Part shown: piece after piece, positions 2,890 through 56,640 of the stretch | How the letters are laid out: each line of letters begins with the position of its first letter | How positions within the stretch are numbered: the first letter of the stretch is position 1 | Source of the DNA: Raillietiella orientalis | Taxonomy: Eukaryota | DNA: 64,000 nucleotides | Direction: 5' to 3' | Assembly (NCBI GenBank): GCA_036172245.1 | Contig: JAYWIR010000046.1 | Coordinates: forward strand, 558,001 to 622,000 | Translations under genes and position numbers: made by a program | Notes under the pieces: generated by a model | Told to the model about the DNA's origin: nothing | The model's input: only the letters and a program-made list of their open reading frames with translations | Databases searched by the model: none

Positions 2890-4270
2890 AGTAATAAAAG
2901 CTTCATGAATTTTTATGCAATTTAAAACAAATTCAGATAAAAATTTCCATGTACATGATAGTATACATTATAAATAGTTAATCCCATTTTATGCTTAACT
3001 CCCAGAAAATGTTTTGTTTAATTAAAATCATGACTATACCAATAAATCTAAAGCATTTTTGTACCCTAACTGACAATCAGGATTGATTCACATTCATGCA
3101 ACATTGCAAGATAAGTGTATTCACTACATGTTTACATTACTAGTAGTGATATATTCAGCACCTTTATTTGTATTTGTTTTATTGACAATAAATTGTTGGA
3201 ACATCATAATTTTCAAATAATGAAGTCTTGCTACAGGTGCCTAAACTTTAAACTTACTTAAGTAACCTAAATTAAGAGATTCCTTTCATGCAATTCTATA
3301 ACTAAAGGCAATAAGAATTATGATTTGGAATTAGAAGTTTAGTTCGTTTTCCATGATTGAATGCAATGAAATCTAAGACAGTAAGTATAAATACCTAAAT
3401 TGCTTTTGGAGCGCTTAGAAAAATCACTTTCAGAAAATTACTAGAACCTCAAATAATGAAATTTACCTTCTGGAGGAAATGTAGTTCAATTCACATTTGA
3501 ATCAGCAACAACAATCAGTTTCTTTCGATCCTGACATTCCTTTGCCTGAGGGGGAATGATGTTATTCATTTCATTGTCATCTACTTTTCACATACATGGA
3601 AGAACACAAGTTGTAACAGTTTATTCTCGAATTGTTCGATCTTAATCCCACCTATGCTTCCAGTTTTCTATTCCAAGAGCTTATTAAACAGTTATTTAGA
3701 TTGTCCACTTTTTTCAATCGCAAATATACTAGTAGACCATGTTCTTCCTTTAACATGTACTTTTCTTCCTCAAAATTCCTATTTATTACTTAGTAATAAA
3801 TGCCTTTTTCTTTACAGAATACTCCTAAAATTTACACTATACTTTAAGATCTAAGCTTTCTCAGGTAACAATATTTTTCTGGATCACTCTTCACTTGAAA
3901 TAGGAATAGATTCCATTTCATGTGCGAAATAAATCTTTTTCATATACTAGTATTTCTTTGTAGTTGCATGATTCCAATAAGCCAAATTAACACGTGGAAT
4001 TTAAAAATCACACTTGATTTTGAGGATATCCATTACTGTTTCTTGATTATCTTTAGATCCAGCCATCATGTCCACTTCATTGTATAAGAGCATAAGTGTA
4101 TACATTAAAACTATCAAGATGACCGTATTTTTATCACCCAACAGATGACATCTGAAAATTTAGTCCTTTCATTTTAACAAGGTTTATTTCATCTCAATAT
4201 TTTTCTACGTCAATTAAAAAGATACATCACAGTCAACTATCAACTGATGATTCTGATTGTCAAATGCTCC

Positions 4271-4425
4271 TACTTCAGCTATATAAAATCTAGCATGCTC
4301 ATAACACCTAGTGCATAATACCTGACTACAAAATATCATCAAACAAAATATCATACTTCAGCTATATAAAATCTAGCATGCTCATAACACCTAGTGCATA
4401 ATACCTGACTACAAAATATCATCAA
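4271..4425. repeat. Exact 72-bp direct duplication (4271-4342, 4354-4425) with an 11-nt spacer
   Basis: TACTTCAGCT...AAATATCATCAA occurs twice. The spacer ACAAAATATCA copies 4328-4338. Confidence 0.95.
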
Positions 4426-5551
4426 TCATTTAAAATCTCTGTATAGATAAATAACTTGAATAATCCAGGATTGTATACTTCAGAAATATGCTGCACAACG
4501 ATACCATCGGGTGCCCAGAAATGCAAATGATTAATTACCAGTTTGGACACTGATGCATAATTCCATGAACCTATTTTGCTTGTTTACTAATGTCTCGTGA
4601 ATGGTAAAGAATGTCTTCATCACAAGCCAATGCTGCCAGACATAATTCATGAAAACTTCTGAAGTATTTATTTCGGTTGTAAAATACAACCGAAATAAAT
4701 AGCATTACGCTAAAGTAAAAAATAAAAAAATGAAATTATGTAATTTAGTAAAATTAGTTTTATTTTCTAGTTTGTATAAACTGTAAAATTTACTATTTTG
4801 ACTTTATTTTGCTATATTCTGCAACATGCAATCTCAGACTATCATGCAGTTCCTTGTTGAGAATTGTAAGCATTCTAGAAAGACATCTTGAAATATTTGA
4901 TCGTCCACACATATTGAAGGACAAAAGGAATTATAGAAAAACTGCAACTTTTATGAAAGTTTAACATTCCATGACATTTCAAGTTTGTTTTTTGCTTCAT
5001 GTTGCATTGAATCATCCTATTATTTCAATCATCTCTATGAAACCTGACCAGTTTCCACTTAACTAATGACCAGTTTCATACTTTTTCTATGCTATTAGTA
5101 TTTTAAATAATTCTCAGTGGTAAAGGCAAACTTTGTTGCTGTGAATAGCAATTTGACATTACCTAACTGTAGCAAAGTTGATTCCACTTTCTTCTTAATA
5201 AGCAAACTAAAACTAAATCAACATTCAACAATCAACACTTTTAAAAAGAATCAAATAATTACTCCAAAACAATTTTCTTGTTTAACAAAATAACAGAACC
5301 ACAACTGTTTTTCCCTGTTACAATTTTTTTAAATACCAAAAATGACAATTTGATCTTACATTTTGTACATTCAAATGTTTAACACAAAAATCATCAAATA
5401 CATCATGCATGTGCATCTGGTTTCTTTATGAATAGTTGTTGCATTCCTTTAAACCTATATTATTGCATGTGGCTGTTTCATCCATCACCTTCTGGATGGA
5501 TGCAATGATTGAATTACATCCCATACCTAATACATTACAATATCATTACAT

Positions 5552-8500
5552 TTAATTTAATGCAGTCTTATCAATATTGTTGGAAACACTTTCTTCCTTT
5601 TCATGGATAAGTAAATGCGTTTTGATTTTACTTTTTTGAATAGTCTGGTAAGAGCACAAATGGCATGTGTACATATTGTTATCCATATCTGGATGGTACT
5701 TGCTCAAATGGGACTTATAACTGTAACTCTGTATGGCAGAATATGAGCAATGAGGGCACTTGTAAGAATAAATGCCAGAATGTTTTTGCTGATGTCGGCG
5801 TAGAGAATTTAAATCAGCTGTGCGATATAAACACTGGGTACACTGAAAGGGCTTTTCCCTTGTGTGAGTACGCAAATGAAGTTCATGGGCATATTTTGTT
5901 GCTGAGGAGTGACCACATGATGAACATGTGAAAGGACGCAGCCTTTCATGAACCATACGTAAGTGATTTTGATAAGCCCGTTGTGATGAGTATGTTCTCT
6001 GACATAGTTCACAAAATTGGGATCGCCGGCTTCCTGGAAGACATTGTCTTTCAGCTAATGGAAGATGCACCACATGATGATTCAACAACTGAGTTGCTTG
6101 AGTGAACTGTTTGCCACATATCAAGCAAGCATGTTTCCTTTCGGACATATGTATTTGCTGATGTAAGCAAAGACGGGCCTTTGTATTTGCCCAATACCTG
6201 TGGCAAATAGAACATTCCAATAAACCAACAACAATCCTAGAAACATATATTAACTTCAAAAAACTTTAATCACATAACTTACTGATGTGCTTGGCATAGA
6301 TGCTTAGCACACTGGGGCCATTTTGGAGAGTAAAACTGGCAAAGAATACATTTGAAACGGCATGATGGTTTCTCAGAATTAACATGACAATTCATATGTA
6401 TTTGCATTTCTCTTGTGCTTGAGAACTTAAATCTACAGTTCTGAAATTTGCATCTTTGACAGATAACTTAAGATTTCGATCAATCAATAATTTACTTCAA
6501 TTTTTCGTCGAGAAATCTCTTTTGCTCCCAAAGTGTAGTTTTGAAATCTGCATCAATCTCGTCCAAAAATACGGAATTATTCACTTTCGGTGTTTTTTCT
6601 CGCATGCTTCTTTCAGGCGATTGTATACGAATATCATTTGGTATTTTTGTAATTGTAACTAGAAGAAGTGGCTTCGCTGAGTCACCTTGGACTTTGGTCA
6701 TAGACTACAAAACAATACAGTAGCAATAAAAAAAAGAAATTCAAAATACAGTAGCAGACTAGCAAACCAAACTAAATAAAAATGCTCCTCTATGCATTAG
6801 TAGGATGTAAACAAGAGAGTAGGGAGCATGACAAATGCTGTTTCAAGAAAAACAAACATGAAAATGAAACATTTTTTTAGACATTTTTTGAGACTGGTGG
6901 TGATAATTAATTTGTTGGTATTATCTGCTGGAAATATATAACAGCATGCTGCCAGTCCCTTCAAAAGAGAAGGAATCAATAAAAACTAAAGCTGATGGTA
7001 CAAGATTTAGAATATTAATGTTATTGCAGTTTTTAAAATATTTTTCCATCCTTTCTATTTTTGGTTATTTAAAAGATACAACTTTAAGAATGGAAACAAA
7101 TGTGTATTTACATTGGAAATAAGTGAATATATTCATGAAACCTTATCTGAGCAACATGCCTGTAACTTTTAATTATTTTTGCCAATTTAAAGGTATCCAT
7201 TTGCCTTCAACACATAGAAAGTGCTTCAACTAGTAATTCAACAGCATTCCCAAGAGAACGCATGATTTATAATACTAAACAGATTGGGTTCTCCCAGTTA
7301 ATGTTCAGAGGTCTTTCATTGCCACAGTCATTTCATTAAATTTCACTTTCACATTACCAGTTCGTTAAGTAATCAGAATTATTCTAAAAACTGTGAACTG
7401 TTTGCTTTTATTTATATAAAAATTAGCATTAGCAAAAATACAGAATATATGGTGGAAATATAAAATAACATTTGAGCTTGAGGTCATTTCTGACATTCAA
7501 ATATTTAATCAAAAGAAAAACTAGAATTACTTTGATCATTCAGTCTTATTTATGAGTCCCATTTATGGGTCTTGAAGTCCCTGTCTACAATAAATACGTG
7601 CTTAACTCAAGTTATCCATTTATACTGTTAGCAGCTATGACATGCAATTTTATTTCATGGAATAGAAAATAAATTTTAATTGTTGGCTGTTCCCCCAAGG
7701 TTATTTTTTGATTGAAGAAAGACTAGACTTACATTCAGCATGAGATCAAAATAAAAATTAGTTCAACTTAATGAAAATGTACCAGGTGAAAAGACTATTT
7801 GAAGAGATACAAATAAGAATCATTAATAAACTTGAATCGAAAACAATTATCAGTCTGTATGGACACGTCTGTTAATAAAGCAATGAATTAAATACTTGAT
7901 TAGTTTAATTAAATGACTTCTTATTATGACAAAAGAAGTCTTTGGTCATTGATATCTCTTTACAAACTATTTCTAGACCATGTTTACATACAGTTTTTCA
8001 ATCAGTTTGGCACTTCTGATTGAATGAAGACAAAATCGATACTAAATCAAAACATTATTACCTTCTACATGAAACATCAGTTTAGTTACCTATAAATCTC
8101 AGAAAAAATAAACACAACACCATTTACGTAAGACCTAAGTTATTACTGAAGGCTGTAATTAGGAATTTACAATGACATATAAGTGTGGTGACAAAAAACA
8201 CGAATTCAACAGAATTCCACTTATATGGCTTGCCTCTGCATCTATATGAATAAGGAGCACAGAAACTGAAACGCATTTTTTTTCCTTCCAGATTTGATCC
8301 ATAAGAACTCTGCTCAAGCTGAATTAAATTTACATGATTCAGAAAGTTCATTTCAAACATCAATATTACAAACTGGATATTTTGGGCAATAGTAAACATT
8401 AATTCCCTTCTTTCAACGTTCACATGTATGTTCTCAATTTCTTCTCAGTTTCATCTAACTACTTAAAATTGCTCTTTCACAAGTATTTTGGAAGTGGTTC

Positions 8501-16660: not shown

Positions 16661-17823
16661 CAAGTTATGAGAATTCAAATAATGCTTTACTACCAGAAAA
16701 GTAATTGAAATTCTTGCAAGCCTTATGAGAAATGGAAAACTCAAAAATGAGAAAGAATTTTTGTTCCTTCAACATGTAATGTAAACGTATTTCATAATAA
16801 CCATAGCCGAAACCATATAAATATATATAACCTGGAGATACTCTAAACAGTACCGAAAAAATAAAAGCTACCTTTATATTACCAAGGTTTTGCAGATAAA
16901 TGATTATTATTTTTAACACCCACAAGTAAGATGTATATCCGATTTAGTGATTTGAATCAATAAATACAATTTATGCAAAAAAAAAATACTCCAGAAGTAT
17001 GCTAAGTTTAGGTTTCTTTGAAGTTTCCTACAAAATAAGTAGATAGAGATTAAGTCATATTTTAGGTATGCTTCCTTCATACCATAATAAGGCGAGTTGT
17101 ATTATGCGATTTTCCTTTTTTTCCCTAAGTTATTACTCATGTTTGAAGAGGTAGTCGAATTCAAAAATCTATTTTCTGAAGTGTTAGATTGCTTGAAGAA
17201 GTGACAGTAATCGGACTTCTGCAGTCGGTTTATCTGATAGTGGGGTGTCCCAGGAGCCTTGCGACTTCGTAATGGGCAATAGTTTATTATAGTTTATGTT
17301 TTACATTCATTTAGCTTGCTTGTGTGTGTGCATGAAGCAGCCAACAGAATGGCAGGTTCACGTACGGAAGAAACAGGAAACGTACGCACTCCAAGACTTC
17401 AGTTTTTCGTGTTACTCAAATGTCCAAACGATACGATTCCCTCTTGTAGACCAATCTACAAAGTGACTCGAATGAAAACTAACTGAAGCACTACAATACT
17501 TTGAATACCACCCATCTCTTTACTTGTTCCCTTGTCTGGACCAACGCGGTAGAATGATGCGGGGTCAATAATTCGGAAACCTACTTGAGCCTCTCATTTC
17601 GGTCATGGATGAGATTAGGAACGATCCGATTTTAAAACTGATCCTTGAGTCCTATCATTGTTACTGAGTGGTGAAATTGGGATTTCGTTAGAGTTGAGAA
17701 TCACATCTTCCAGCACAAGATAATGTAAATCAAATTGTGTAAATAAGGTGAACCATCATGACCATTCTTCTTTAGAATGACGTTAGCTTCTCAGAGATAA
17801 CTGTTTTTTGTGGGTTCGAATGC

Positions 17824-18870
17824 CTACTGTTTTTCGAAACAGCCTGGTCGATGGTCAAAGCATTCGTCTTCAGCGTGGGCAAGTGCAACCTCAACACGAT
17901 CATGGATGGGCCTTCACCGAAGAGTACGTGGGCCGCTTCCACAGGAGACCCATCTGACTGACGAGTACGGCTCGAGAACTGCACCCTCCTGAGTGCTGGT
18001 CCGCACAGCCATCCACATTTCGTCCGGCGAGTCCCTGTCTTGCAGCATCACGAAATATGCCGTGCCAGCGCATGGCACGCCTCAACGCTCACCACCCTTC
18101 CCTACGAAGACAGCTCGGGTCGCGTTCGTGGTCGCATCAGCTGCCTAAACCCAGCAGGCAAGCGACTCTTCTGTTCACCTCAGCACATTCGCCCTTCCTG
18201 CTTGCGCGACGACGCGACAACGTTCGCTTTCGGATGTGCGCACAGCCTACGGGAAACGCACTTTCCATCTGCCTGCACTACTAGGAAGTCGCCATCCCAG
18301 AGCTGCCGAACCGGCCTGAATCCGAAACGCTTGAGAATCGCGCGGTGCTCGCCATGCGAATTCAGTCTACTCGATGACGCACCTCGCTCCACCCATCTCC
18401 CCTCGTTCGACTGGCCGCGTTTCGAACTCGTCCTTTTACGCGTTGTCCGTTTCCGGGGGCAAAGTTTCCGACTACCCGATCCACGTCCGAGCGAGCGACT
18501 TACCAGCTTCCGACGCATCTCCGGCGTCGTGCTCGCCCTTCCTCGCTTCCATTTGCCATGGTTAGCTGGAAACGATGCAGACAAGCGCAGCACTTTGGCC
18601 TTCCCCGCGGAACAGTTACAGAGCGGTCCCGATCCATCGTTCCACTGGTTCACAAAATTCGAATCGTGGAAGCAAAGATAAGCAAAAGTTCCCCTTCGGC
18701 TAATTTTCGAAACGCACTCGGCTTATCCAGTACAATTCCTTCGGAGACTGATAAGATCCCGCAGCGAGATTCAGCGTACCATTCACCTGATGGCTTCCTC
18801 GACTCAGCGGAGCAACCTGGCCGTCGTCCATCATTCATCTCTTGACCTTTGAATGACACCAGTTTACTAG
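17824..18870 (+). mobile_element. Decayed L1/Tx1-like non-LTR ORF2, AP-endonuclease domain (GC-rich)
   Basis: Ordered endonuclease motifs across frames: QETHL (17942-17956), EDSSGR, EFSLLD...PSFDW...SFRL, SD(x)..GVVL, then WFTKFESWKQR. Confidence 0.65.
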
Positions 18871-19204
18871 GGCATTCGTTGGGAAATGCACGGGTAAAGT
18901 ATAAGATTCATACTTTTGCGCGGCAAAGTTTTCCCTGAATCTGCCTTAAGAAGGATCGAGAGTCTGCAAATTTCTCACTACTTCGAATTGCCACGTTTCT
19001 GAAAAAACGTCCTGTTGAATCGGAAAGAGACGAAGATTCATCCCGTTTTAGCGTTTCAGGAAGTAATCATCTTATTGGAAAATCTATATTTATCGATCGA
19101 CACATCGGTCATACGATGCATAGTTGAGTGTTTCTCAGAACGGGTGTTTTATTGTGTTTGCTGTTGGCTACACATATGCAATCATCCACATATTGCTGGA
19201 TTCC
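17824..19204. repeat. 1381-bp inverted duplication, copy 1 (partner at 53699-55080)
   Basis: Reverse-complement match. By eye about 5 substitutions and one 1-bp indel. The ORF track shows near-identical peptides on opposite strands. Confidence 0.97.
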
Positions 19205-42083: not shown

Positions 42084-43954
42084 TATTCTGAGTACTAACA
42101 TGTAATCAGTACGGTGTGTCACAATGTGGAAAAAGTAAAAATTATATATGTAAACCTTTTGTCAATTTTCTATGTAGTGCATTAACCAATCTCCAAGAAA
42201 CTTCACATGATGGAAGTGAGTATGAAGGGAGTGAAAAAACATGTATATTTCTCTTATATTTCTTGCAAAGTATAGAATTCTGTTATCCCGCATGTGATTC
42301 TTTTCAACTTTGTGCAGAGTGATGGGAAATGCAGAGAATTCCAATGATTTTGATAGTTTTTTTTGGCTAAAACAACAGTTCCGATCCTTATCTCTACAAG
42401 GAGAATGAAAAAGCGTGTGCAACCGTACAAAATTGCCATCTTGCATGAAGTACTCGTGCTGACTCCTCTTTCTACAAGGAATTTTCCAGAAATTCCATGG
42501 AATTTTCATCTATAATAAAGTGATCCACATTGAATCTATGTGTGCCATCTACTACGATTATCTATGATTTGCTCAATATTCATGTTGTCGCGTTTCTTAT
42601 CAAGAATCACTCTATCCTCTGCGTGGGCATTCTGCCACACAGCATAAAAATTAAATGCTAGGTAAATAAATAATATGAATGAATCAAATCCATGAACACA
42701 TGGAGAAGTGAATTATGAAATAATTCAATTTCATAATTCATTCAAAGAAACAATGTCTGATCGAACCGAGTTTTTTTCGGGAAACATCTCGAAGTTTGTC
42801 AGTGGAGCTGTCTCCAGAAACCCTTCAGCTGATCTCGCATTATGATCGATAGCTCTTTCAAATTTGTTTTTGAATATGGAAGCAAAGAATTCAAATACTG
42901 ATTCGTACTATCATGAGTTTTTGTCCTCGCCACTTTGTGGAATGCTGGCAACTCTGACACAAATGCTGCTTGAATGCCGAAGGCTAGGTCAGGGATGGAA
43001 ACGCATCGCTAAGGCACTCTAGAGCCTGGATGCTGCGCTTCTGGGCCTACTCAAAGAAACGCTTAGTTCTCTAGGCTGAGCAGCTGTCTCCTCGCCGAGG
43101 ATCCTCCGTCCCATGAGAGCAGAGATGACTGCCAAAATGGAGGAAGGGTGTGGTCATCACCCCGGGGAGCCGTTTTTGATCGCCACTGCTTGCACACAAA
43201 GGTCAGCGAACTGGCCCAGTCTGGAATGTGACCCAAGAGGGGACCTGATTACAACTGCGGCAGATAGACCCGACATCAACGAGCGCATTTATCTCTCCCC
43301 CCGTGCTTTCCCTGCCTGACTTAGACCCTCGGAAATCGTGTCCATTGCAGAGGGGTCGGTCCACCCCATTCCCTATTTATTGATCGCTACTCAAGAGTTT
43401 TTTCACAACTCTACCCTCCTAGTCCTGCCCCCAGCGATGCAGTCTCCATCTTTCCAGACCTGCGCATGTCTGTTGCCGGAGTTTTATTTATTTCTAATAA
43501 ATCACCCAGAAATCCGGAATGAGAATCAGGCAAGGGAGTTTATTAGGGTGTCGATAAACTTTCAGTTCCGAAGAGGGAAAGACTTGGGAGACACTCTGTC
43601 CTCCTTGAAACTCTGATATCTAGGAGGCTCGCCGATTCTCAGAACGATGCTTTCCAGTGTACACAATAGGATTAGGATCCGAACGAAAGAAGACAAGAAA
43701 AGTACGAGTACAATCATGTAATATCTGTTAATACCATGAGAATCATCACACAGCCCATATGTTCACAAATTATCTATAATCTTCAGATCAGGAAAGCAAA
43801 TTAGGATTTTCGTTTCAAATCTTTTGAGTCCTTGTTAACCATTATTGTGAGACATTGAACACATCTTGAAGTGAAATCGCGCCAATCATCCACCCTGATT
43901 CAGAAAATCTCAAGTTTCCAAAAATAAATTCAGTATTAAATTCAATTCCCGACA

Positions 43955-44940
43955 TTAGAGCAGATGCACCCTCCAGGACGTCGCACAGCATCTGCGAAAG
44001 TTGGTCACTGCCTCCACAACTCTCCTCGCAACAGCTCTGTGCCCTCTACGGAATAGCAATGTGCAGCTAGCCGGCAAGGTGAAGACGGCTTGTGACATCG
44101 CAGGAACCAGGAAACTCTTAGGTGGTATCAGAAAGCGACAAATTGCCGACCGAAGCAACGCCAGTTGCATTCCCGAAGAACTACGCTGCCGAGCAGATCT
44201 CGAAATTTCCGGCTGATCTGGAGACCCCCAAGGCTCTCAGGAACACCTCCACTCTTCCCTTGAAGGGGAAGCACTGCGGCAACGCTGTTGCTGCATTGGG
44301 ACCTTCCGTGCAATGCACATAGCAGTCGAGGAACTTTGACTTTTTGCTTCTTCACTTGCGCAGAAGTGGAATTATTCTTTCACCTGCTCGTGGACTGTGC
44401 TGCCCTCCGGAGTGTGTGGGGGCGCGTCTCTCGACGGTTCTTCCGCTCTCGGTATGCAGCTTTAGAGGAGTATGAAAGAGCCTCTTCGTGCGCAGCGTGA
44501 TGCAGACCTCCAGAGCGATTGCCCACCCACATCTGCTTCTGTGGGATGATCCGCGGCATGTCGAGGTGCTGCTGCAAGAGGACAGCACGCCAGGAACGCC
44601 ATCGCGACGATGGTCCCCTTCTAGGGGAGGGCAACGGGATGGCTACATCCGGTGCATTTCAGAGCGGAACTCGCCAGCATCCAGCACAGAGGACCACAGA
44701 GGTCTTCCCCTGTGGCAGAGACCTTTCTTCCCCTTGTCTCTCTCACATAGAAGACTTTGCTTTTTCAAATTTCTTTATATACTCCTCCTTGTCCTCCTTG
44801 ACCGAGGCGGATCTCATTGGCCAGTCAAGTGGAGAGCAGCCAGCTGACCCATAGTTCCTTCGGAGTTTGGTGGGAACGAGTGCCCTGGTCTGCATTTTTG
44901 TTTTTGTTTTTGTTCATCGAAGAGCTGCAATAAACATCCC
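43955..44940 (+). mobile_element. 3' part of an L1/Tx1-like non-LTR element with zf-RVT CCHC region
   Basis: GC-rich island. LLHWDLPCN...FCFFTCAEVELFFHLLVDCAALRSVWGRV fits zf-RVT (H..LP...CxxC...E..HL..C.....W). (TTTTTG)3 and AATAAA lie near 44895-44934. Confidence 0.7.
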
Positions 44941-47439
44941 CCGGCGTAACCGCGTATCTCAACAGATACCGTTTAGCAATGTTCATCACGTTCCAGAAGT
45001 TCCTCAAACCACTCGATCAAAAGATCACTGCCACAGGTGTGAGCTTTAAAAGGGAGGTCGTCCTCCTTCCAGATTCACAGTGCTCAGTTCCCATGTCTCA
45101 TGGTGTTCTTATAATGAATTCTCTTTTGCTGAACGAGAATTTCATTTATCTTGCATTCTCTGGTGTTCGAGAACTCTTTTAATGATGATTCCTCGCTTCC
45201 GAAGTAACTGGGTGTAAGCAAAATATATCAAATAAAATTTTATTTCAAATTCAAACAGTGCTGTGTAATATTTTAAACTGTCCTTATGAATGAATAGAGG
45301 AATGTAATCAGGGTATTTCACGGGCTCACAGTATGAACAAAACTAAAAATCACAATTGTATCATCTTAAGTGGAATTCGAAGCTTTTTAGGCCACTTTTT
45401 CTGTTTATCGATGTGAAGCAAGTAAAACGTGAAGATAAAAAAAAAAATTTTTTGTTCATTCGTGAAACAGGAAAACGAATATATTTTCTTCGACGTTTGA
45501 GGATAGGTAGTGAATGAATGGTACGACGAGACTCCAGAGAGGTTAAGGGACTGTTCTGTTAGAATGAATGCATCCCAAGAGGAACTCATAGAGAAAAATT
45601 TTCATGAGATTACATAAGCCAATTTTTGGGGGAAGCTAATCGAATTAGTACCAGGACAGGAGAATCTAGAAGAATAAGAACATTTCCGTAGTGTTCGCGT
45701 TTCACTGAAGGTCTCAAGAACTTCATTCTCGTTCAGTTTTATACTTCATTTTATAGGAAAGAAAATGCACAGGGATAACACATCATTTCATTAAAATGCA
45801 AACTCGTAAAGCTCCTTAGTTCTCGGGTAGTTCTACAGAATCTTCTTCCTTGGGGAGTTTCTTTCTAACATGATCAGTGAATGCAAGTCTTTCAAGGAGA
45901 GCACAGTCTGATTTTCAGTCAGGATGTGCGTGTTGTTTCTATAGGTAGAAAGACAAATGTTTTCAGTCCCTCTGGTTTTGAATCTTTATCTTGTTGTTTA
46001 TTTGAATTTTCGGCTTCCTTTGCGATGCACCAATCATTCATTAGATTAAAGAGAGAGAACTGATATGGAAACATGAAAGACTCCAGTTTCCGCTTCTATA
46101 TCATTTTCTGGACATAACCAACACTGCTGTTGTCAGCTTATGGTTACCCTCTCTCTCTTTTCTATTTAGATTACACTGGTTCCATAAGACCGCAACTTGA
46201 TTCTGCCAGTTGTCTTTCCAAATAAAATTCTGCCATGCTGCTCATTACAACCGAATGCCTCTAAGTAAGAAGTTAGGTCCATGCTGATGGCAGCTCCATC
46301 AATTCGTGATTCTTTAGCTTTTTTCCCCTAATGTTCCATGAGACTGAATGCTGCACAGTCAATTCCATTCTGGGGAACTCCACAGTGCAATCTGAAACGC
46401 AATGCAACAGGAGAACAAGTGCAGATGCAGATTCACAAGATTCAAAAAAAAAAAAAAAAATCAACTAAATTCAGCATATTTATAGGATCCATATAAAAAG
46501 TCGCAATGAGGATCAACTTATGGGGACTGCTGAAAATGAGCATACTGATCAACTTGTCTGAGATGATGAGATGAAGAACAGAAGGTAGAAACATGAATAC
46601 GATCGTCTCCTTCCAGAATTGGAGATAAATACGTGACTATGAGAACAGTTATGCGAATCGGGTGTATATGGAGAAATTACTGAGAGAAAAGCATCGCAAA
46701 ATGACAACAAATGAGTTTATTAGTTCTTCAGATGAGTTTCTTATCAATTAAGCGTCAAGACGGAAAACTTAAATGTTTCGATTTACATAATTAAAAAGAT
46801 ATTTCCTTCTAATTTTTGGCTAGAGAGAAGCTTAAATGCACAAGTTTGCAATTCAAGGTTGGAACATTTGCAACTGATGGCTTCTGATTAATTCCGTAGA
46901 TACCTCAGTTTTTCTATCTGCATTTTTTGCTTCTCCTATGTGATGATAAATAGATTCCTCTATCATCTTCACTAGTTGTTTGTGTCTTTTTGTATTTATA
47001 GTACATCATCTATTTCTCTATATCTCATTTTTCCACTAGCGTCATTCGTGATCAATAGCATCTCTGTACTCGATTTGTTGAAATGTAAGTGTCTCGGCAC
47101 ATGGAGTTCCTTCTAGGTTTCTGTTCATCCATGAGAGGCAGCAAGTGATCTGTTTTTCAGTGTGCTCTCCCTTCGATATCAATTTTATGGGACTGTCTCA
47201 TGCATACACTATTGCAAACGTTCAAATCAATCTATCTTTAGGCTTGCAGAAATCCTTTCCATTGCAATCACTATCAGAGTCATTCGGTTGTTTCTTTTTT
47301 TTTTTTTCCTCTAACATCTTTGTTGAACTCTTTTTTCTCCGGACAATTCATATTTCAGTTTCTGTTGAGGCTTGGACCGATTATTCAGAGGTGGCTCTAT
47401 GAACTTATGAACTCGGTTTTCGATGAAGAAACTCAGTTT

Positions 47440-47760
47440 TCAGCAGCCATTCAAATGCTCCCAAATTCAACGAAGGAATGTTTACGTGCTACAGATGTGA
47501 TTCCTGATTTTTATTCCTCTTCAAAATTACTAGCTGAGGAACCTGGCAAGAATATAAGGTGGAAGCAAGGAAAAACATGGGACACCCTGATTCTCTAGGG
47601 AAAAACGAAAGAAAAAAAGTGTCAGGAATAAAAATCTTAGGAGATTCAAATCTTTAAGGATTTGATGGCTCCCTGGATCGGAAATAGTGATGAGTATCAA
47701 ATCTGCATTTCAGTTCAAGCAAGAGGCACTGAAAATCTTCAAAGATTAACAGCAAGAGTG
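47440..47760 (+). mobile_element. Decayed BEL/Pao pol fragment
   Basis: STKECLRA..IPDFY...KLL...WKQGKTWD...EIQIFKDLMAPWIG (compare TKR.L...IFDP.G...KLL..LW..G..WD...IPRW). Confidence 0.5.
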
Positions 47761-50700: not shown

Positions 50701-52219
50701 TGATATTTATCAATAAAGATCCTCTGAACAAATAGTGCTGTTTTTCTATTTTTATTTTTTTGACTACATTTTTCTATTAAAGTGAATTCGAAAAAATTTT
50801 CTTACTCAAATTACGCAAATCTAGAGCAAATATTTGTTTATAGGATACATGAGTTCATGATATTGAGCTTTAATCCTCTTGGTTGCAGACTGCATCTCTA
50901 ATGGCTTTTACGATAAGGAAGCTGACATGAGACTTAGACATAGTACTTATTTCTTATGATTTTCCTGATGCCTTTCTTCTGTATTCTACCATTCTCGTTT
51001 TTCATTCACATTTTTCTTTTTTTTAATTTTTGCGTATTTGACTATGAATAAGATGTCTATTTAAAATGTCTAAAGCAGAGACGGTTTAAGGTTTATGCTG
51101 ACTACTAGAATTGCGTGCCCACAATGTTCTCTGTCCACAGAAACATGCCTGAATGGGGCCGTACAAAGCAAATGCATATATGGGCGTTGTTTCCAACGTT
51201 CGCTAAGTGTTGGATTAACATCGAGAAATTCTGAGCCGACTTCTTGGAATGCCAGCTCGGAAACTACTGATAGTTTTGAAAGAAATTAATGCTGGGTTAG
51301 GTACTCAGAACGCATGCTCAATAGTTCTTCAGTTTCAAACAATTTGAGAAGCAGTAAAAACAAGTGCGGGTGCACTTGTAAGTTATTATTTTAAATGCCA
51401 CAGTGATGTGCGGAACTGCTGCAAACTGGCTCTAAAAATTCTAAGCGAAATGAGGAGATCCTTTCAAGAGGATATCAACTGCTTTTGCGAAGCCATCGTG
51501 GTCACAAATGGCTTCGCATAAGGGTTGAGTCGAGCAGCTGAACAGAAAACCGCATACTAGGCATGTGATCAGATTTGCTATACGGCAACGAGCTAGGATT
51601 TCACCTACTCGAGTACCAATACGAAGAGGTGTCCCTAGAATCGGGGGATGATTTCACGAGAAAAAAAATTGCGATTTCGATGAAAGGAGTGGTTGAAATA
51701 CAATGAGACTCCATGACTGCTTTTTTTCAGAATCTCTTCTGATCCTCGAAATATTCCCCTCATTGATCCATACCCATTTTCCTGTGCTTTAGTGCTTTAC
51801 TCTGTTTTCAGACAGTAAGCCTCTGTGAAAATCAAAGACCTCTGCAACCTGAAGAAGATTACTGACAAAGGATTTATATAGTTTAAGTCAGAGGTATGAG
51901 CTTTGCATTGAAAAACATTCGAAAGAGTTTCTTTCCAGTAAAAAAACACAGGGCTTTTATTAATTTGTATTTTTCAAAGGGGAAAAAAAGATTCTATCAG
52001 CTTACTTTTGGATAAGCCGATGAAGCACTAATCCCACTTTGATTAAAGGATTCAAATACAGTTTAAGAGAGTGAATTTCAGAGAATAATTTCAGATAGCT
52101 TCCAGCAACGTTAACAGATTCAGGAACCATTTCAGGATATACTCAAGGAGTATGCTCATTTCCATTGGAAGTTGGCCATTTTAAACTTTAAACATTTTAA
52201 AACTTTTTAAACATTTAAA

Positions 52220-52357
52220 ATGGCTTTCATTGAACGGGATCTCATTCCTTCAACGATTTGGGACGACAGACCTCTGATCACTTAAAATTTCAAGGTTCTG
52301 TGGAATGCGTTCCGTTTTCGAGAAGCAAAACGACGTGATACCACCTTCGGCTACTAG
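52220..52357 (+). pseudogene. Possible CRESS capsid C-terminal fragment
   Basis: MAFIERDLIPSTIWDDRPLIT*NFKVLWNAFRFREAKRRDTTFGY*. The ending resembles the circovirus-type capsid terminal strand (Y.V...xxFRE). One internal stop; short. Confidence 0.3.
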
Positions 52358-52583
52358 ATAGCCTACTGAAGATTTCCCTTAACCTCCCTCCCTTTTACAC
52401 TCTTACTGGTGGGCGTGGCCCACCCGACTATCCGAGTCCTTCGCGAGGTCGGGTTTCACCAGACACCCACGCTAGGAAGCTTATCGCTTTCCGCATTCCT
52501 CAGTCTTCCACGTGTGCGGACGATAGCTAGACACTAAAAATATCTGCTTACATAACAATTTCCCACGAGGTCGGATGATTACT

Positions 52584-52615
52584 GCGCAATCTGGGTAATA
52601 CAAACCGGATTGCGC
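52584..52615 (-). other. Rolling-circle origin stem-loop with nonanucleotide TTGTATTAC
   Basis: Arms GCGCAATCTGG (52584-52594) and CCGGATTGCGC (52605-52615) pair at 10 of 11 positions. The loop GTAATACAAA reads TTTGTATTAC on the minus strand. Confidence 0.88.
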
Positions 52616-52643
52616 TAACAAAAAATACTGCGCAGTTAGCCAG

Positions 52644-52651
52644 TATATAAA
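52644..52651 (+). promoter_or_regulatory. TATA box of the viral rep promoter
   Basis: TATATAAA lies about 30 nt after the origin hairpin and about 60 nt before the inferred rep start. Confidence 0.6.
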
Positions 52652-52707
52652 CCACCTAAACCATCCAAACCACAGTCTTACCTTCCAGTGAATTTCTTGA
52701 GCACGCC

Positions 52708-53580
52708 ATACCATACGCACTACACTTCAACTGGTGCCTCACCCTATGCAACTATACAGAAGAAGACTTCAAGGCCATAAAGCAGTGGTGCCGCACCAAT
52801 TGCTTTTTCGCCTGCATCGGCAGAGAGACCGCCGACACAGGAACGCCACACCTCCAGGGCTACATGGAACTTAAAGAGCCTAGGACCATACCCGGTTTGC
52901 ATCGCAAACCTTTTCATAAAACGCACCTTGAAAAAAAGGCTCTCCTCAGAGCAACGTTAGGTACTGCACGAAGCAGGATAAAGATGCATGGACTTACGGC
53001 GCCATTAACCAACAACCAGAAGCAACATCCTACCAAGAACAAGTTAACGACAACGATAACTACTACTCTACTATTTCCTTTCTAGATACTCCAACTCATA
53101 GAAAGCGGAGCAGATGAGCTCTACGTCCTCAAACATCACACCTAATTCTACTCCAAAAACATTAACTTCATTAAAGAATGTTTCCGACTGTCCAGAACAC
53201 GCCAACATCCCAATCCACTAGCAGGTCTACAACTAAAAGAATGGCAGATACAAATTCTGGATATCATCAGACAACAACCCCACAAACGAAAAATCTACTG
53301 GTTCTTTGACAAAGTTGGAAACACTGGAAAAACTATGATGGCCAAATTTCTTTTCCTAAAGAAAGACGCCATCTACATGCACAGCTGTAAAAAAGCTGAT
53401 GCAGCTCACATTCACAACGGTAAGCGAATTATTGTAGTCGATTTTACGAAAGATAACATGGAGCACGTACAATACGGCTTCATTGAATCTTTAAAGAATG
53501 GAATCATATTCGATTTCAAATATCAAGGAAGTATAAAATACCTTCTGCAATCATATTGCATTATTCTTTCTAATATTCCT
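52708..53580 (+). pseudogene. rep: CRESS replication-associated protein (HUH endonuclease plus SF3 helicase), disrupted
   Basis: Motif I WCLTLCN (52732), motif II PHLQGY (52846-52863), motif III YCTK (52962-52973), LKEWQ, Walker A WFFDKVGNTGKT (GNTGKT 53317-53334), Walker B IIVVDF (53428-53445), YGFIESLKNG and motif C IILSN (53560-53574). Lesions: probable start ATG>ATA (GCCATA), a frameshift in the A7 run at 52931-52937, a second shift near 53060-53090, a stop at 53143 and a lost C-terminus. Confidence 0.93.
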
Positions 53581-54050
53581 TATGTATCATTTCTTCCATT
53601 TAAACTTTCTGAGGAAATACTTCCTGCATTGAAATTAGTTCCATTCCTGCTATCAGATATTGATAGCGCGTTCACTTCAATAATACGATCATCATTAGGG
53701 AATCCAGCAATATGTGGATGATTGCATATGTGTAGCCAACAGCAAACACAATAAAACACCCGTTCTGAGAAACACTCAACTATGCATCGTATGACCGATG
53801 TGTCGATCGATAAATATAGATTTTCCAATAAGATGATTACTTCCTGAAACGCTAAAACGGGATGAATCTTCGTCTCTTTCCGATTCAACAGGACGTTTTT
53901 TCAGAAACGTGGCAATTCGAAGTAGTGAGAAATTTGCAGACTCTCGATCCTTCTTAAGGCAGATTCAGGGAAAACTTTGCCGCGCAAAAGTATGAATCTT
54001 ATACTTTACCCGTGCATTTCCCAACGAATGCCCTAGTAAACTGGTGTCAT
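53581..54050 (+). mobile_element. Decayed L1-like reverse-transcriptase fragment(s)
   Basis: LLSDIDSAFTSIIRSSL (RT domain 3-like), then YVDDCICV (YVDD at 53711-53722) in another frame, and IQGKL further on. The spacing implies an internal deletion. Confidence 0.45.
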
Positions 54051-55080
54051 TCAAAGGTCAAGAGATGAATGATGGACGACGGCCAGGTTGCTCCGCTGAG
54101 TCGAGGAAGCCATCAGGTGAATGGTACGCTGAATCTCGCTGCGGGATCTTATCAGTCTCCGAAGGAATTGTACTGGATAAGCCGAGTGCGTTTCGAAAAT
54201 TAGCCGAAGGGGAACTTTTGCTTATCTTTGCTTCCACGATTCGAATTTTGTGAACCAGTGGAACGATGGATCGGCACCGCTCTGTAACTGTTCCGCGGGG
54301 AAGGCCAAAGTGCTGCGCTTGTCTGCATCGTTTCCAGCTAACCATGGCAAATGGAAGCGAGGAAGGGCGAGCACGACGCCGGAGATGCGTCGGAAGCTGG
54401 TAAGTCGCTCGCTCGGACGTGGATCGGGTAGTCGGAAACTTTGCCCCCGGAAACGGACAACGCGTCAAAAGGACGAGTTCGAAACGCGGCCAGTCGAACG
54501 AGGGGAGATGGGTGGAGCGAGGTGCGTCATCGAGTAGACTGAATTCGCATGGCGAGCACCGCGCGATTCTCAAGCGTTTCGGATTCAGGCCGGTTCGGCA
54601 GCTCTGGGATGGCGACTTCCTAGTAGTGCAGGCAGATGGAAAGTGCGTTTCCCGTAGGCTGTGCGCACATCCGAAAGCGAACGTTGTCGCGTCGTCGCGC
54701 AAGCAGGAAGGGCGAATGTGCTGAGGTGAACAGAAGAGTCGCTTGCCTGCTGGGTTTAGGCAGCTGATGCGACCACGAACGCGACCCGAGCTGTCTTCGT
54801 AGGGAAGGGTGGTGAGCGTTGAGGCGTGCCATGCGCTGGCACGGCATGTTTCGTGATGCTGCAAGACAGGGACTCGCCGGACGAAATGTGGATGGCTGTG
54901 CGGACCAGCACTCAGGAGGGTGCAGTTCTCGAGCCGTACTCGTCAGTCAGATGGGTCGCCTGTGGAAGCGGCCCACGTACTCTTCGGTGAAGGCCCATCC
55001 ATGATCGTGTTGAGGTTGCACTTGCCCACGCTGAAGATGAATGCTTTGACCATCGACCAGGCTGTTTCGAAAAATAGTAG
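53699..55080. repeat. 1382-bp inverted duplication, copy 2 (partner at 17824-19204); carries the L1/Tx1 endonuclease remnant on the minus strand
   Basis: Direct reverse-complement comparison with 17824-19204. Confidence 0.97.
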
Positions 55081-55199
55081 ACGTCCGGTATCTACTCAAA
55101 AAACTGCTTCCAAGGTGGCATAATCAACGCTAATTTTAATTCTTTTGTAATTAATTTCGTTACATGTTGAATTCTGGCTTTACTGTGACACACCTAGGG

Positions 55200-56640
55200 G
55201 CGGATCTCGGAGTATCAATAGGAGACGAGCACAAGGATCCGATGCGAAGGAAGAGATAAGTTTCTATGTACTGTCTAGTACGAAAGAGTACATATTTCAT
55301 CAAAGTTGTAGAAGTAGGGGGTGAAGAATGCAATCTTATAGTTTTGTCACTCTTAATTTGTTTACTGTTTCGAGTATTGGAAACGATGAAAGAAATGAAT
55401 ACACTTTTTCCAGGAATAAAAGAATGTCGATGTACTTATGTAACCTCTAGAGATAACTTTTACGATGTTCATGGGATAGCAATTCGATTACTTCTATGAA
55501 TCCATTGCTAACTGTTGTAGGGAGCATGCTATCTTGAATTGGTTGTTTCTGCAGGAAGTCCATACCTCTTAGAGTGGAAAGCCTTTTAGAAGCCTGGGTT
55601 TAGTTTTCTAGGTTTGCGATATCACTTTAACACTATCCCTTACTTGTCACTTGTCCTATGAGCAAGTAGCAAGCAAGCATTGTCTCATTCTGCTCAGCAG
55701 CAGACCTACGTTCCTTGTTTGTTCGGGATTGGTGGCTTTCACGAAAAAAAAAAACACACAAAAACAAAAAAGCAATCTGGTCAGGCCCTACTCCAGTCGT
55801 TCTCGAAAATACTTCAAGAACCTTTCCAAGGCAAAGAAAAGCTTACATTTGCAAGAGCAGAAACCGTTTCAGAATATTCGAGTAACATGGAAGGAGGAGG
55901 GGGGAGGCGAATCCGTGGTTCACGACCGCCATTCTGTTGGAGCAAAATATTGCAGAAGGACCCTAGTTGAGTCGAGAAGAGGGAGTGAGACAACTGAGCT
56001 GCTTGATTTTCGATGTGGAGCAAAGCCGTTCTTCGTAAATTGCATCATCATGCAGACTACTTTGTAAGGTCTGCTCAGTAGATAGCTGTAGATATTCGGC
56101 ATCACTGGGAAGTACTGCACCCTGATTCGTATTTTCTCCATAGTTGCGCTGGCGGTTTCCACGGGGATTTCCAGATAAGACTCAAGCGGTATGAAATCAG
56201 GCTTTGGTATAAACTTATAAGAAGTTGTTGCAGTCAAGTTGGTACTGAATAGTTTTAAGAACTTACTCCACAAAAAACTCGGTGGGGTATGTGTGATCGG
56301 ATCTAAAGATATTTTGTCAGAAGGAACGAGTCTTTGTTTCGATCATGGGAGACTCCAGGCACTGCTATCTTGCTAAGGGACCAGCATATGTCACTGAGTA
56401 ACGGGTTCATGGATTTTGTTCCAGCCTGACCATGGCCATGGCATTTGCAGTAGAGCCACAAACCTTTATAAACAAACGCATACCTCTTCTGAAGATGCCA
56501 TGGAAATTACAAACTCTCAAATAGGAAATGCACCAAAGCATCTTGAATCAGAGTGAATTCTTTTCTTGAGTTTCTGCAAGGAATAGTGGGTTGCGGTGCT
56601 CAGATATCTTCAAAATCGGGTATTTTTTTATGATCTCAAA
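55200..56640 (-). mobile_element. Highly decayed L1-like ORF2 (endonuclease to RT N-terminus)
   Basis: Ordered remnants LFLAETQ, RGMRLFIK, VTYAGP, LSRPYKV, YGLPAE, SWKK, NYKI (compare FLQETH, RGVAIL, NVYAP, SRLDRI, DGLPAE, SWK, NYRPI). Confidence 0.45.

What the first reader, a model, noticed from the sequence alone, without database searches (positions are those of the whole stretch)
52220..53580. Endogenous CRESS-DNA virus retaining origin, promoter and a near-complete Rep
Seen: RCR motifs I-III and SF3 Walker A/B/C in order across two frameshifts, preceded by an origin hairpin and a TATA box. The ORF track shows only fragments of this. Known: the helicase signature (LxxWQ...RxIxWxxDxxGNxGKT...VDF...YxxIExLKNG...KY...N) resembles nanovirus/alphasatellite/smacovirus-type Reps more than Circoviridae Reps. 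Inference: this is a germline record of a possibly undescribed ssDNA virus lineage that infected this animal, preserved together with its cis-elements.
Basis: partly seen in the sequence, partly recalled or inferred. Interest (0 to 1): 0.88.

Follow-up and report, generated by a model that had tools for sequence, protein, structure and literature searches.

The report
Decayed CRESS-DNA virus fossil in arthropod
A broken, integrated copy of the replication gene and replication origin of a small circular single-stranded DNA virus sits in what looks like an arthropod chromosome; it is a genuine viral fossil of a well-known kind, from a virus lineage with no close described relative.

Summary
Window 52,584-53,667 carries an origin-like hairpin, a TATA motif and a full-length but broken Rep gene of a CRESS-DNA virus (phylum Cressdnaviricota).

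Evidence for Rep:
- Pfam Viral_Rep scores 38.3 bits against a cut-off of 26.
- A profile of 26 homologues scores 235.6 bits over 52,723-53,580.
- The helicase part has 4,418 relatives; the best is 50% identical.

Rep is dead: no in-frame ATG, two frameshifts that put motif III in another frame, in-frame stops, and the helicase arginine finger replaced.

The hairpin (11-bp stem) is the only one of its kind in the 64 kb; 0 of 100 simulated sequences had one. Its nonamer TTGTATTAC lies on the strand opposite Rep. The closest complete virus genome found, L001, has the same arrangement.

The block is embedded in AT-rich sequence with arthropod-like host genes. At 53,699 it abuts a 1.39-kb host repeat that has a second copy 34 kb away.

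No capsid remnant was found. Integration could not be checked with reads or a whole genome. Family placement stays "unclassified": the helicase is not PCV2-like, and likeness to nanoviruses was not testable.

Such elements are widely reported in invertebrates, so this is a new member of a known kind, of modest interest.

The parts
52584..52615 (-). Origin-like stem-loop. It has an 11-bp stem (10 Watson-Crick pairs plus one T.G / A.C position) and a 10-nt loop. The nonamer TTGTATTAC (52,595-52,603) reads on the minus strand, which is 8 of 9 matches to TAGTATTAC.
   Evidence: Inverted repeat I8. The DNA fold gives -16.5 kcal/mol, z -3.68, 0 of 200 shuffles as good. It is the only such hairpin in the window, and 0 of 100 simulated sequences had one. 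The closest full genome, L001, has the same strand arrangement.
52580..52634 (+). Two copies of TACTGCGCA (52,580-52,588 and 52,626-52,634) bracket the hairpin. They are candidate Rep-binding iterons; this is inferred.
   Evidence: Direct repeat D9. The function is inferred only from the position next to the stem-loop. Nine-mer repeats of this kind are common by chance over the whole 1.65-kb region, where 11 families were found.
52644..52651 (+). TATATAAA inside CCAGTATATAAA, 29 nt after the stem and 88 nt before the Trp codon of motif I. It is a likely former Rep promoter element.
   Evidence: the motif alone is common, 72 in the window. L001 has CCAGTATATAGG at the corresponding place between its hairpin and its Rep ATG.
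52723..52937 (+). Rep HUH-endonuclease domain, first part, in the frame with start mod 3 = 1. It carries motif I (52,735-52,752) and motif II (52,846-52,863). No ATG lies in this frame between the TATA motif and motif I. The first frameshift is in or next to the A7 run at 52,931-52,937.
   Evidence: Pfam Viral_Rep 38.3 bits. PDB 7kii at 1.3e-08. Profile alignment. Sequence reading.
52923..53057 (+). Rep segment displaced into frame 0. It carries motif III, YCTK, with the catalytic tyrosine (52,962-52,973). The second frameshift lies between about 53,030 and 53,085.
   Evidence: hmmsearch of the homologue profile on the separate frames: frame 0 matches profile positions 78-130.
53086..53667 (+). 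Linker and SF3 helicase domain, back in frame 1. An in-frame TAA sits at 53,143-53,145, and a TAG at 53,083-85 lies just before this part. It carries Walker A (53,317-34), Walker B (53,428-45) and motif C (53,560-74). The arginine-finger position (53,602-22) reads KLSEEIL where homologues have KLSxDRW.
   Evidence: The tblastn match with the L001 Rep reaches 53,667.
52230..52583 (.). Unassigned block upstream of the hairpin. It is GC-richer (0.46-0.58) than the flank to its left (0.31-0.34). It may be virus-derived, for example a decayed 5' end of a capsid gene on the minus strand, but this is not shown.
   Evidence: Composition step at about 52,260. There was no capsid homology. The minus frames have 5-10 stops and an R+K fraction of 0.15-0.20, against a background 95th percentile of 0.189.
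53699..55087 (-). A 1.39-kb GC-rich interspersed host repeat that abuts the 3' end of Rep. A second, inverted copy lies at 17,817-19,204. It is not part of the virus and marks the right boundary.
   Evidence: Inverted repeats I1 (771 nt, 100%) and I2 (621 nt, 99%). The flanks of the two copies differ. No Pfam or Rfam match.

Best explanation
This is an endogenous viral element: a linearised piece of a small circular Rep-encoding ssDNA virus (phylum Cressdnaviricota) that was inserted by chance recombination into the chromosome of an arthropod-like host and has since decayed.

What survives is the intergenic origin region and the whole length of the Rep gene. The origin region holds the stem-loop with its nonamer, flanking repeats and a TATA motif. 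Rep comprises the HUH nuclease and the SF3 helicase.

In the living virus, Rep would have bound the repeats and nicked the nonamer in the loop on the strand opposite its own gene. It would then have driven rolling-circle replication with its helicase. That is the arrangement of cycloviruses and of the metagenomic genome L001, where the capsid gene is on the nicked strand.

In the present copy none of this can work. There is no start codon. Two frameshifts displace the catalytic-tyrosine motif. Stop codons interrupt the frame, and the helicase arginine finger is gone.

The capsid gene is missing or unrecognisable. The right end is bounded by a host repeat.

Shown: Rep homology, the breaks, the hairpin, and the host-like context. 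Inferred: germline integration, the ambisense Rep+Cap ancestor, and the roles of the repeats and the TATA motif.
For: Rep identity:
- Viral_Rep scores 38.3 bits against a cut-off of 26.
- The profile of 26 homologues aligns positions 10-284 of 352 to one frame over 52,723-53,580 at 235.6 bits. Motif III is found only in another frame.
- The helicase fragment has 4,418 relatives at E <= 0.001 and 1,294 at <= 1e-10.
- Of the 20 best, 18 carry Viral_Rep at E <= 0.01 (14 above the cut-off) and 16 carry RNA_helicase.
- ESM Atlas: the nearest clusters are 93-100% viral, with Cressdnaviricota the commonest phylum.
- The L001 Rep aligns over 52,732-53,667 at E 4e-41.

Decay:
- In-frame TAG and TAA codons, two frame changes, and no ATG.
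- At the arginine finger, D/R/W is replaced by E/I/L, and two further near-invariant columns deviate.
- The window sits on a long terminal branch of 0.92, against a median of 0.41.

Origin:
-.
- 12 of 13 related IMG/VR genomes have a nonamer hairpin just upstream of Rep. In 4 of them (L001, and the near-identical trio L006/L009/L013) it is on the strand opposite Rep, as here.
- L001 also shares the GTAATAC... loop and a CCAGTATATA motif before Rep.

Host context:
- 0 N in the window.
- A prefoldin-4 exon 55% identical to an insect protein.
- A C2H2 zinc-finger ORF.
- A host repeat abutting Rep, with a second copy 34 kb away.
- The element meets the criteria used by Dennis et al. 2018 (PMC6069186, passages read): more than 3 kb of host flank plus frameshifts or stops.
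Against: - Integration rests on the assembly alone. No sequencing run could be listed and no whole genome is held, so a chimeric join cannot be ruled out by reads.
- The first frameshift sits at an A7 run, a typical site of sequencing error, so the true number of breaks could be lower.
- No capsid remnant was detected. The ancestor could therefore have been a Rep-only replicon rather than a Rep+Cap virus.
- The left boundary is not defined.
- No second copy or orthologue was available to date the insertion.
- The intergenic DNA does not align with that of L001 at nucleotide level. The shared layout is therefore architecture, not sequence homology.
Confidence: 0.87

Rival explanations
1. The ancestor was a Rep-only circular replicon of about 1.2 kb, like an alphasatellite or a nanovirus DNA-R segment. 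On this reading the block (origin plus Rep, about 1.1-1.4 kb) is essentially the whole molecule and no capsid gene was ever there.
For: No capsid homology was found anywhere in 49-58 kb. Six related metagenome contigs (L018-L023, 1,234-1,303 nt) have identical 55-nt ends, as circular molecules do. Each holds only a Rep gene, and four of the six (L018, L019, L021, L022) also show an upstream hairpin. The window helicase is 33-41% identical to five of the six (L018-L022) and 28% to L023, which is as close as to L001 (36%).
Against: Where a hairpin was found in those Rep-only circles (four of six), the nonamer is on the Rep strand. In the window and in the Rep+Cap genome L001 it is on the opposite strand. 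L001 is the best full-length match (E 4e-41, against 5e-20 or weaker for the other 12 IMG/VR genomes). Capsid genes diverge too fast for their absence to be proven by these searches.
Confidence: 0.2
2. The Rep block is not integrated. A free virus, or a virus of a contaminating organism, was joined to host DNA by misassembly.
For: Integration could not be checked with reads. CRESS-DNA viruses are frequent contaminants of sequencing samples (PMC6069186, passages read).
Against: The gene is broken in at least four ways, which a replicating virus would not tolerate. There is no N gap in the window. The right edge joins a host repeat whose other copy lies in the same window. No terminal redundancy of a circular genome was found.
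Confidence: 0.05
3. The Rep belongs to a host rolling-circle or other mobile element, or to a co-opted host gene, rather than to a viral fossil.
For: Some endogenous CRESS Reps in invertebrates are intact and possibly co-opted (PMC6069186, discussion passage). The locus is repeat-rich.
Against: There is only one copy in the window, and the block has no match elsewhere in it. The helicase is the SF3 type found in CRESS-DNA viruses. All 20 best relatives examined come from contigs of 1.6-5.7 kb, as small circular genomes do. The frame is broken, so the gene is not functional.
Confidence: 0.04

Closest known systems
CRESS-DNA / circovirus-like endogenous viral elements of invertebrates (Liu et al. 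2011, recalled; Dennis et al. 2018, PMC6069186; Rosario et al. 2018, PMC6186406)
   Same: A Rep-derived insert in an arthropod-like genome, with long host flanks, frameshifts and stops. It serves as evidence of a past host-virus link.
   Different: This copy also keeps the origin stem-loop and a TATA motif next to Rep. The passages I read in those papers do not mention retained origins: 'stem-loop' and 'origin of replication' occur 0 times in PMC6069186. Its Rep is not in the Circovirus/Cyclovirus clade as far as tested.
IMG/VR genome L001 (IMGVR_UViG_2700988944_000001, 2,308 nt), an unclassified cressdnavirus with divergent Rep and Cap
   Same: It is the best full-length Rep match (about 30% over 331 aa, E 4e-41). 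The hairpin lies just upstream of Rep with the nonamer on the strand opposite Rep. The loop begins GTAATAC on the Rep strand. CCAGTATATA lies between the hairpin and Rep.
   Different: L001 has an intact Rep and a 255-aa arginine-rich Cap. The window has neither. The intergenic DNA is not alignable.
Arizlama virus (QXP08173.1) and Skomarfal virus 56, unclassified Cressdnaviricota from lake water and freshwater mussels
   Same: They were the only two virus-named hits among the helicase relatives whose names were looked up or listed: one of the 20 best and one of the 76 profile hits. P0003 shares 39% identity at E 1.7e-25.
   Different: They are free metagenomic genomes. PMC10821283 places an Arizlama isolate in an unnamed 'Cluster A' outside the established families.
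Circoviridae Rep (PCV2, 7lar; Muscovy duck circovirus, 7kii)
   Same: The nuclease domain matches 7kii at 1.3e-08 and PCV2 at 0.007-0.03. The nonamer sits on the capsid strand as in cycloviruses; the cyclovirus layout is recalled, and Table 3 of PMC6186406 lists such genomes as type II.
   Different: The helicase fragment has no match to any solved chain at E <= 10. The homologue profile matches PCV2 Rep only over residues 14-164, not over its helicase.
Nanoviridae / Alphasatellitidae Rep
   Same: The homologue profile matches the solved nuclease domains 2hwt and 6h8o at about 1e-22, as well as it matches PCV2; that these entries are nanovirus Reps is recalled. Related Rep-only circles of about 1.2 kb exist. 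From recall, the helicase signature resembles that of nanovirus Reps.
   Different: This was not tested with nanovirus or alphasatellite helicase sequences, because none could be brought in. In the Rep-only relatives the nonamer is on the Rep strand, unlike here.

Membership tests
Cressdnaviricota Rep (HUH endonuclease + SF3 helicase) | HUH-endonuclease domain with motifs I, II (HxQ) and III (YxxK) | tested here: met
   Viral_Rep scores 38.3 bits, above the cut-off of 26. CLTLCN, PHLQGY and YCTK are present, although YCTK is in a shifted frame.
Cressdnaviricota Rep (HUH endonuclease + SF3 helicase) | SF3 helicase with Walker A, Walker B, motif C and an arginine finger | tested here: inconclusive
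   Walker A, Walker B and motif C are present, and the window shares all 15 invariant columns of alignment A1. The arginine finger is replaced (KLSEEIL). Pfam RNA_helicase is not reached by the window fragment, though 16 of its 20 best relatives reach it. So ancestry is met but a working helicase is not.
Cressdnaviricota genome | Origin stem-loop with a NANTATTAC-like nonamer at its apex, next to Rep | tested here: met
   The hairpin is at 52,584-52,615 and carries TTGTATTAC, one mismatch to TAGTATTAC. It is unique in the window, and 0 of 100 simulations had one.
Cressdnaviricota virus (as opposed to a Rep-only replicon) | Capsid gene | tested here: not met
   No match to 13 related genomes' non-Rep ORFs in 49-58 kb. 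There is no open arginine-rich frame. The ORF at 55,920-56,342(-) is not capsid-like. Weak searches cannot prove absence.
Endogenous viral element (criteria of Dennis et al. 2018) | More than 3 kb of host sequence on both sides, plus in-frame stops or frameshifts | tested here: met
   There are 52 kb on the left and 10 kb on the right with no N. Host-type genes and a repeat are present. There are two frameshifts and stops.
Endogenous viral element | Junctions confirmed by reads, or an orthologous locus in related species | not testable with these tools
   No run was listed and no genome is held.
Circoviridae | Rep, including its helicase, groups with Circovirus/Cyclovirus Reps | tested here: not met
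   The helicase does not match PCV2 Rep, either by sequence or by the family profile. Only the nuclease domain matches. No phylogeny with ICTV references was possible.
Nanoviridae / Alphasatellitidae / Smacoviridae | Rep groups with reference Reps of these families | not tested
   No reference sequences of these families were returned by any tool. The resemblance is recalled only.
Helitron-type host transposon | Rep fused to a Pif1-like SF1 helicase, in many copies | tested here: not met
   The helicase relatives are Rep proteins on contigs of 1.6-5.7 kb that carry Viral_Rep and RNA_helicase. There is a single copy in the window. The Helitron definition is recalled.

The most novel reading that the evidence does not exclude
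The element records an arthropod infection by a deep, still unnamed cressdnavirus lineage that links Rep+Cap genomes and 1.2-kb Rep-only circles. Because it keeps an almost intact origin (stem-loop, nonamer, flanking repeats), the locus may still be recognised in trans by the Rep of a related circulating virus. Alternatively, it may serve the host as a template for antiviral small RNAs. Either way it would be an EVE with a living cis-function rather than a dead fossil.
Probability: 0.07. Interest if true: 0.7.

Novelty: new member of a known kind. Interest (0 to 1): 0.3.

Why it matters
It gives a direct host link (an arthropod-like animal) for a group of cressdnaviruses otherwise known only from water, faecal and bulk-sample metagenomes. 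It also shows that an endogenous copy can preserve the replication origin beside Rep, which lets the origin strand and genome layout of the extinct virus be read. Beyond that it is an ordinary paleovirological record. It does not open a new mechanism or a long-standing question.

Tried and rejected
- **Word-indexed protein search with the helicase fragment:** 30 candidates, none at E <= 0.001. The exhaustive search then found the relatives.
- **PDB by sequence with the helicase fragment:** no hit at E <= 10.
- **Rfam on the whole window:** 0 matches.
- **Own genome search:** none is held.
- **Sequencing runs:** none was listed and no RNA holder was listed. Read support, copy number and expression therefore stay open.
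- **Earlier findings of this scan:** nothing for this genome or this sequence. One unrelated diatom-plastid Rep note came up and was not used.
- **The search for related loci:** alignment A1 was too diverse. The window fragment and P0002 found nothing in viral contigs. P0161 found nothing in metagenome contigs.
- **Capsid search:** non-Rep ORFs of 13 related genomes against 49-58 kb gave no hit below E 0.4. Arginine/lysine content of the minus frames upstream of the hairpin was borderline, with many stops. The ESM Atlas score for the 140-aa ORF at 55,920-56,342(-) was 0.82 with low recognition.
- **Terminal redundancy or a second copy of the block in the window:** none.
- **Intron instead of frameshift:** rejected. 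Homology runs continuously across the first shift, and a TAA lies inside a homologous helicase-linker stretch.
- **BEACH-domain host gene around the locus:** one weak sub-threshold hit at 47,242-47,598 (20 bits against a cut-off of 26.8). None of the 32 other plus-strand ORFs scanned in 44.8-51.7 kb supported it.
- **Helicase tree (72 rows, 131 columns, quick search):** the window was not placed in any strongly supported clade.
- **Nucleotide alignment of the intergenic region with L001:** not in register, so there is no DNA-level homology.
Full report
**1. What is there**

Reading window 52,580-53,700 shows the following parts on the plus strand, in this order:
- An inverted repeat GCGCAATCTGG / CCGGATTGCGC (52,584-52,594 and 52,605-52,615) around the loop GTAATACAAA.
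- A second copy of TACTGCGCA (the first overlaps the left arm).
- CCAGTATATAAA (52,640-52,651).
- A Rep-like reading frame.

The Rep frame carries these motifs:

| Motif | Sequence | Coordinates | Frame (start mod 3) |
|---|---|---|---|
| Motif I | CLTLCN | 52,735-52,752 | 1 |
| Motif II | PHLQGY | 52,846-52,863 | 1 |
| Motif III | YCTK | 52,962-52,973 | 0 |
| Walker A | GNTGKT | 53,317-53,334 | 1 |
| Walker B | IIVVDF | 53,428-53,445 | 1 |
| B'-type block | YGFIESLKNG | 53,473-53,502 | 1 |
| Motif C | IILSN | 53,560-53,574 | 1 |

**2. Is it more than chance?**

Yes.
- The first fragment reaches Pfam Viral_Rep at 38.3 bits, E 1.6e-09, against a cut-off of 26.
- It matches solved circovirus nuclease domains. 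The best is 7kii at 1.3e-08, which PMC9973303 identifies as the Muscovy duck circovirus Rep (passages read).
- The helicase fragment found nothing in the word-indexed search or in the PDB.
- The exhaustive HMMER search of 1.84 billion representatives gave 4,418 proteins at E <= 0.001, 1,294 at <= 1e-10 and 1 at <= 1e-30. The highest identity was 50%, to P0002.
- Of the 20 best hits, 18 carry Viral_Rep at E <= 0.01 (14 above Pfam's cut-off) and 16 carry RNA_helicase.
- All 20 come from contigs of 1.6-5.7 kb.
- I built a profile from 26 of these homologues, leaving the window out, and ran it on the separate frames with stops as X. It aligns positions 10-284 of 352 to frame 1 over 52,723-53,580 at 235.6 bits. 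The motif III segment is found only in frame 0, at 52,923-53,057.
- No other Rep-like stretch exists in the 64 kb.

**3. How it is broken**

- No ATG lies in the Rep frame between the TATA motif and motif I.
- The frame changes in or next to an A7 run (52,931-52,937). It changes back somewhere between about 53,030 and 53,085.
- Frame 1 holds TAG at 53,083-85 and TAA at 53,143-45. The TAA lies inside a stretch that still aligns with homologues.
- In alignment A1 the window shares all 15 invariant columns. It deviates at near-invariant ones, including the arginine-finger triplet: KLSEEIL where relatives have KLSxDRW.
- The first shift is at a homopolymer and could be a sequencing error. The stop codons and substitutions cannot be explained that way.
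- An intron does not explain the shifts either, because homology is continuous across the first one.
- In a helicase tree of 72 rows and 131 columns, the window sits on a long end branch (0.92, median 0.41). It pairs weakly with P0019 (SH-aLRT 86) and falls in no strongly supported clade.

**4. The origin**

- The hairpin folds at -16.5 kcal/mol as DNA. That is z -3.68, and 0 of 200 shuffles fold as well.
- I scanned for a nonamer within one mismatch of TAGTATTAC in the loop of a stem of at least 9 Watson-Crick pairs. Exactly one site was found in the window, this one, and none in 100 simulated 64-kb sequences.
- An earlier, stricter scan missed it. The third stem position is a T.G pair on the plus strand and therefore an A.C mismatch on the minus strand.
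- The nonamer TTGTATTAC reads on the minus strand, opposite Rep.
- Among 13 related IMG/VR genomes, 12 have such a hairpin within about 100 nt upstream of Rep:
  - 6 have it on the Rep strand.
  - 4 have it on the opposite strand: L001 and the near-identical trio L006/L009/L013.
  - 2 are readable on both strands.
- L001 is the best full-length match, with its Rep aligning to 52,732-53,667 at E 4e-41. It is a 2,308-nt genome with Rep and a divergent, arginine-rich 255-aa Cap.
- L001's loop reads GTAATACTGAA on the Rep strand, and CCAGTATATAGG lies between its hairpin and its Rep ATG. This is the same layout as in the window.
- The intergenic DNA of the two is not alignable.
- The TATA motif by itself is not significant: 72 in the window against 44 expected.
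- The TACTGCGCA pair is a plausible iteron pair by position only.

**5. Context and boundaries**

- The window has no N and is AT-rich, about 30-35% GC over most of its length.
- It carries a prefoldin exon at 2,409-2,666. Its best named relatives are prefoldin subunit 4 of a lacewing (55% identity) and of a fly (45%).
- It also carries a C2H2 zinc-finger ORF at 5,552-6,265. The host therefore looks like an arthropod, probably an insect, with no close relative among the named hits.
- Rep homology ends at about 53,667.
- At 53,699 a 1.39-kb GC-rich repeat begins. An inverted copy lies at 17,817-19,204, identical over 771 nt and 99% identical over 621 nt, with different flanks. This is a host interspersed repeat, not part of the virus.
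- On the left, GC content steps up at about 52,260. The 52,230-52,583 block could not be assigned.
- No capsid remnant was detected on either side.

**6. Ancestor**

Relatives of this Rep include two kinds of molecule:
- Rep+Cap genomes of about 2.0-2.9 kb (L001-L013).
- Rep-only molecules. Six metagenome contigs of 1,234-1,303 nt have identical 55-nt ends, encode Rep alone, and in four of the six show an upstream hairpin.

The window's helicase is about equally distant from both: 33-41% identity to five of the six circles (28% to L023), and 36% to L001. The origin strand and the best overall match favour an L001-like ambisense Rep+Cap ancestor. A Rep-only ancestor remains possible; I give it about 0.2.

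**7. Family placement**

- Named relatives are unclassified. Arizlama virus is one, and PMC10821283 puts an Arizlama isolate in an unnamed 'Cluster A'. Skomarfal virus 56 is the other.
- The homologue profile matches the PCV2 Rep only over residues 14-164. It matches two further solved nuclease domains (2hwt and 6h8o, which I recall as nanovirus Rep) about equally well, at roughly 1e-22.
- So the helicase is not of the solved circovirus type.
- The proposed likeness to nanovirus, alphasatellite or smacovirus helicases could not be tested, because no reference sequences of those families were available. It rests on recall.

**8. Comparison with what is known, and verdict**

- Endogenous circovirus- and CRESS-like Rep sequences are well documented in invertebrates.
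- Dennis et al. 2018 list 93 such sequences in invertebrate genomes and judge 60 of them to be endogenous. Their criteria are host flanks of more than 3 kb and frameshifts or stops (PMC6069186, passages read).
- Rosario et al. 2018 include such elements in a Rep phylogeny (PMC6186406, passages read).
- The present element meets those criteria.
- Its retained origin is a nice detail. One full-text search for endogenous elements with nonanucleotide stem-loops found no animal example among the 8 papers returned. That is one search of an open-access library, not proof of absence.
- Verdict: a real, decayed endogenous CRESS-DNA virus element. It is a new member of a known kind, of modest interest.
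- Integration, age and any host use remain to be shown with reads, related genomes and small-RNA data.

Noticed in passing
window 17,817-19,204 and 53,699-55,087: A 1.39-kb interspersed repeat with a GC-rich core (up to about 57% GC) is present twice in inverted orientation. The copies are 99-100% identical. Several long frames are open but have no Pfam or Rfam match. I saw no terminal inverted repeats or target-site duplication. The element type is unknown.
   Followed up: partly
window 43,000-45,000: A third GC-rich island (0.47-0.54 GC) sits in an otherwise 30-37% GC region. It is not similar to the 1.39-kb repeat at the thresholds used.
   Followed up: no
window 4,261-4,426: Two tandem copies of an 83-nt unit, 94% identical.
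   Followed up: no
window 2,409-2,666 (+) and 5,552-6,265 (-): Host genes. One is a prefoldin subunit 4 exon (Prefoldin_2, E 1.9e-12; 55% identical to a lacewing protein). The other is a multi-finger C2H2 zinc-finger ORF of 237 aa.
   Followed up: partly
window 47,242-47,598 (+): A weak, sub-threshold BEACH-domain match (20 bits, cut-off 26.8). No supporting exons were found in the neighbouring plus-strand ORFs. It is either a gene fragment or chance.
   Followed up: partly
window 52,175-52,224: An AT-rich imperfect palindrome (GCCATTTTAAA...TTTAAAATGGC) lies just left of the compositional step that may mark the left edge of the viral block.
   Followed up: no
protein P0001 (MCK5919361.1, labelled Methylococcales MAG, contig 3.9 kb): The best-scoring helicase hit is a 354-aa protein made of two tandem CRESS-type helicase domains with no nuclease domain, filed under a bacterial MAG. 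It looks like a mis-binned or integrated CRESS-derived sequence.
   Followed up: no
protein P0019 (362 aa, contig 1,889 nt): The window's nearest neighbour in the helicase tree has a CRESS-type helicase. In place of a recognisable Viral_Rep domain, its N-terminus gives weak zinc-finger (C2H2/C2HC) matches.
   Followed up: no
loci L018-L023 (metagenome contigs of 1,234-1,303 nt): Six contigs with identical 55-nt ends encode only a Rep of about 300 aa; four of them also show an origin hairpin. They look like a set of 1.2-kb Rep-only circular molecules of alphasatellite or DNA-R size in environmental data.
   Followed up: partly
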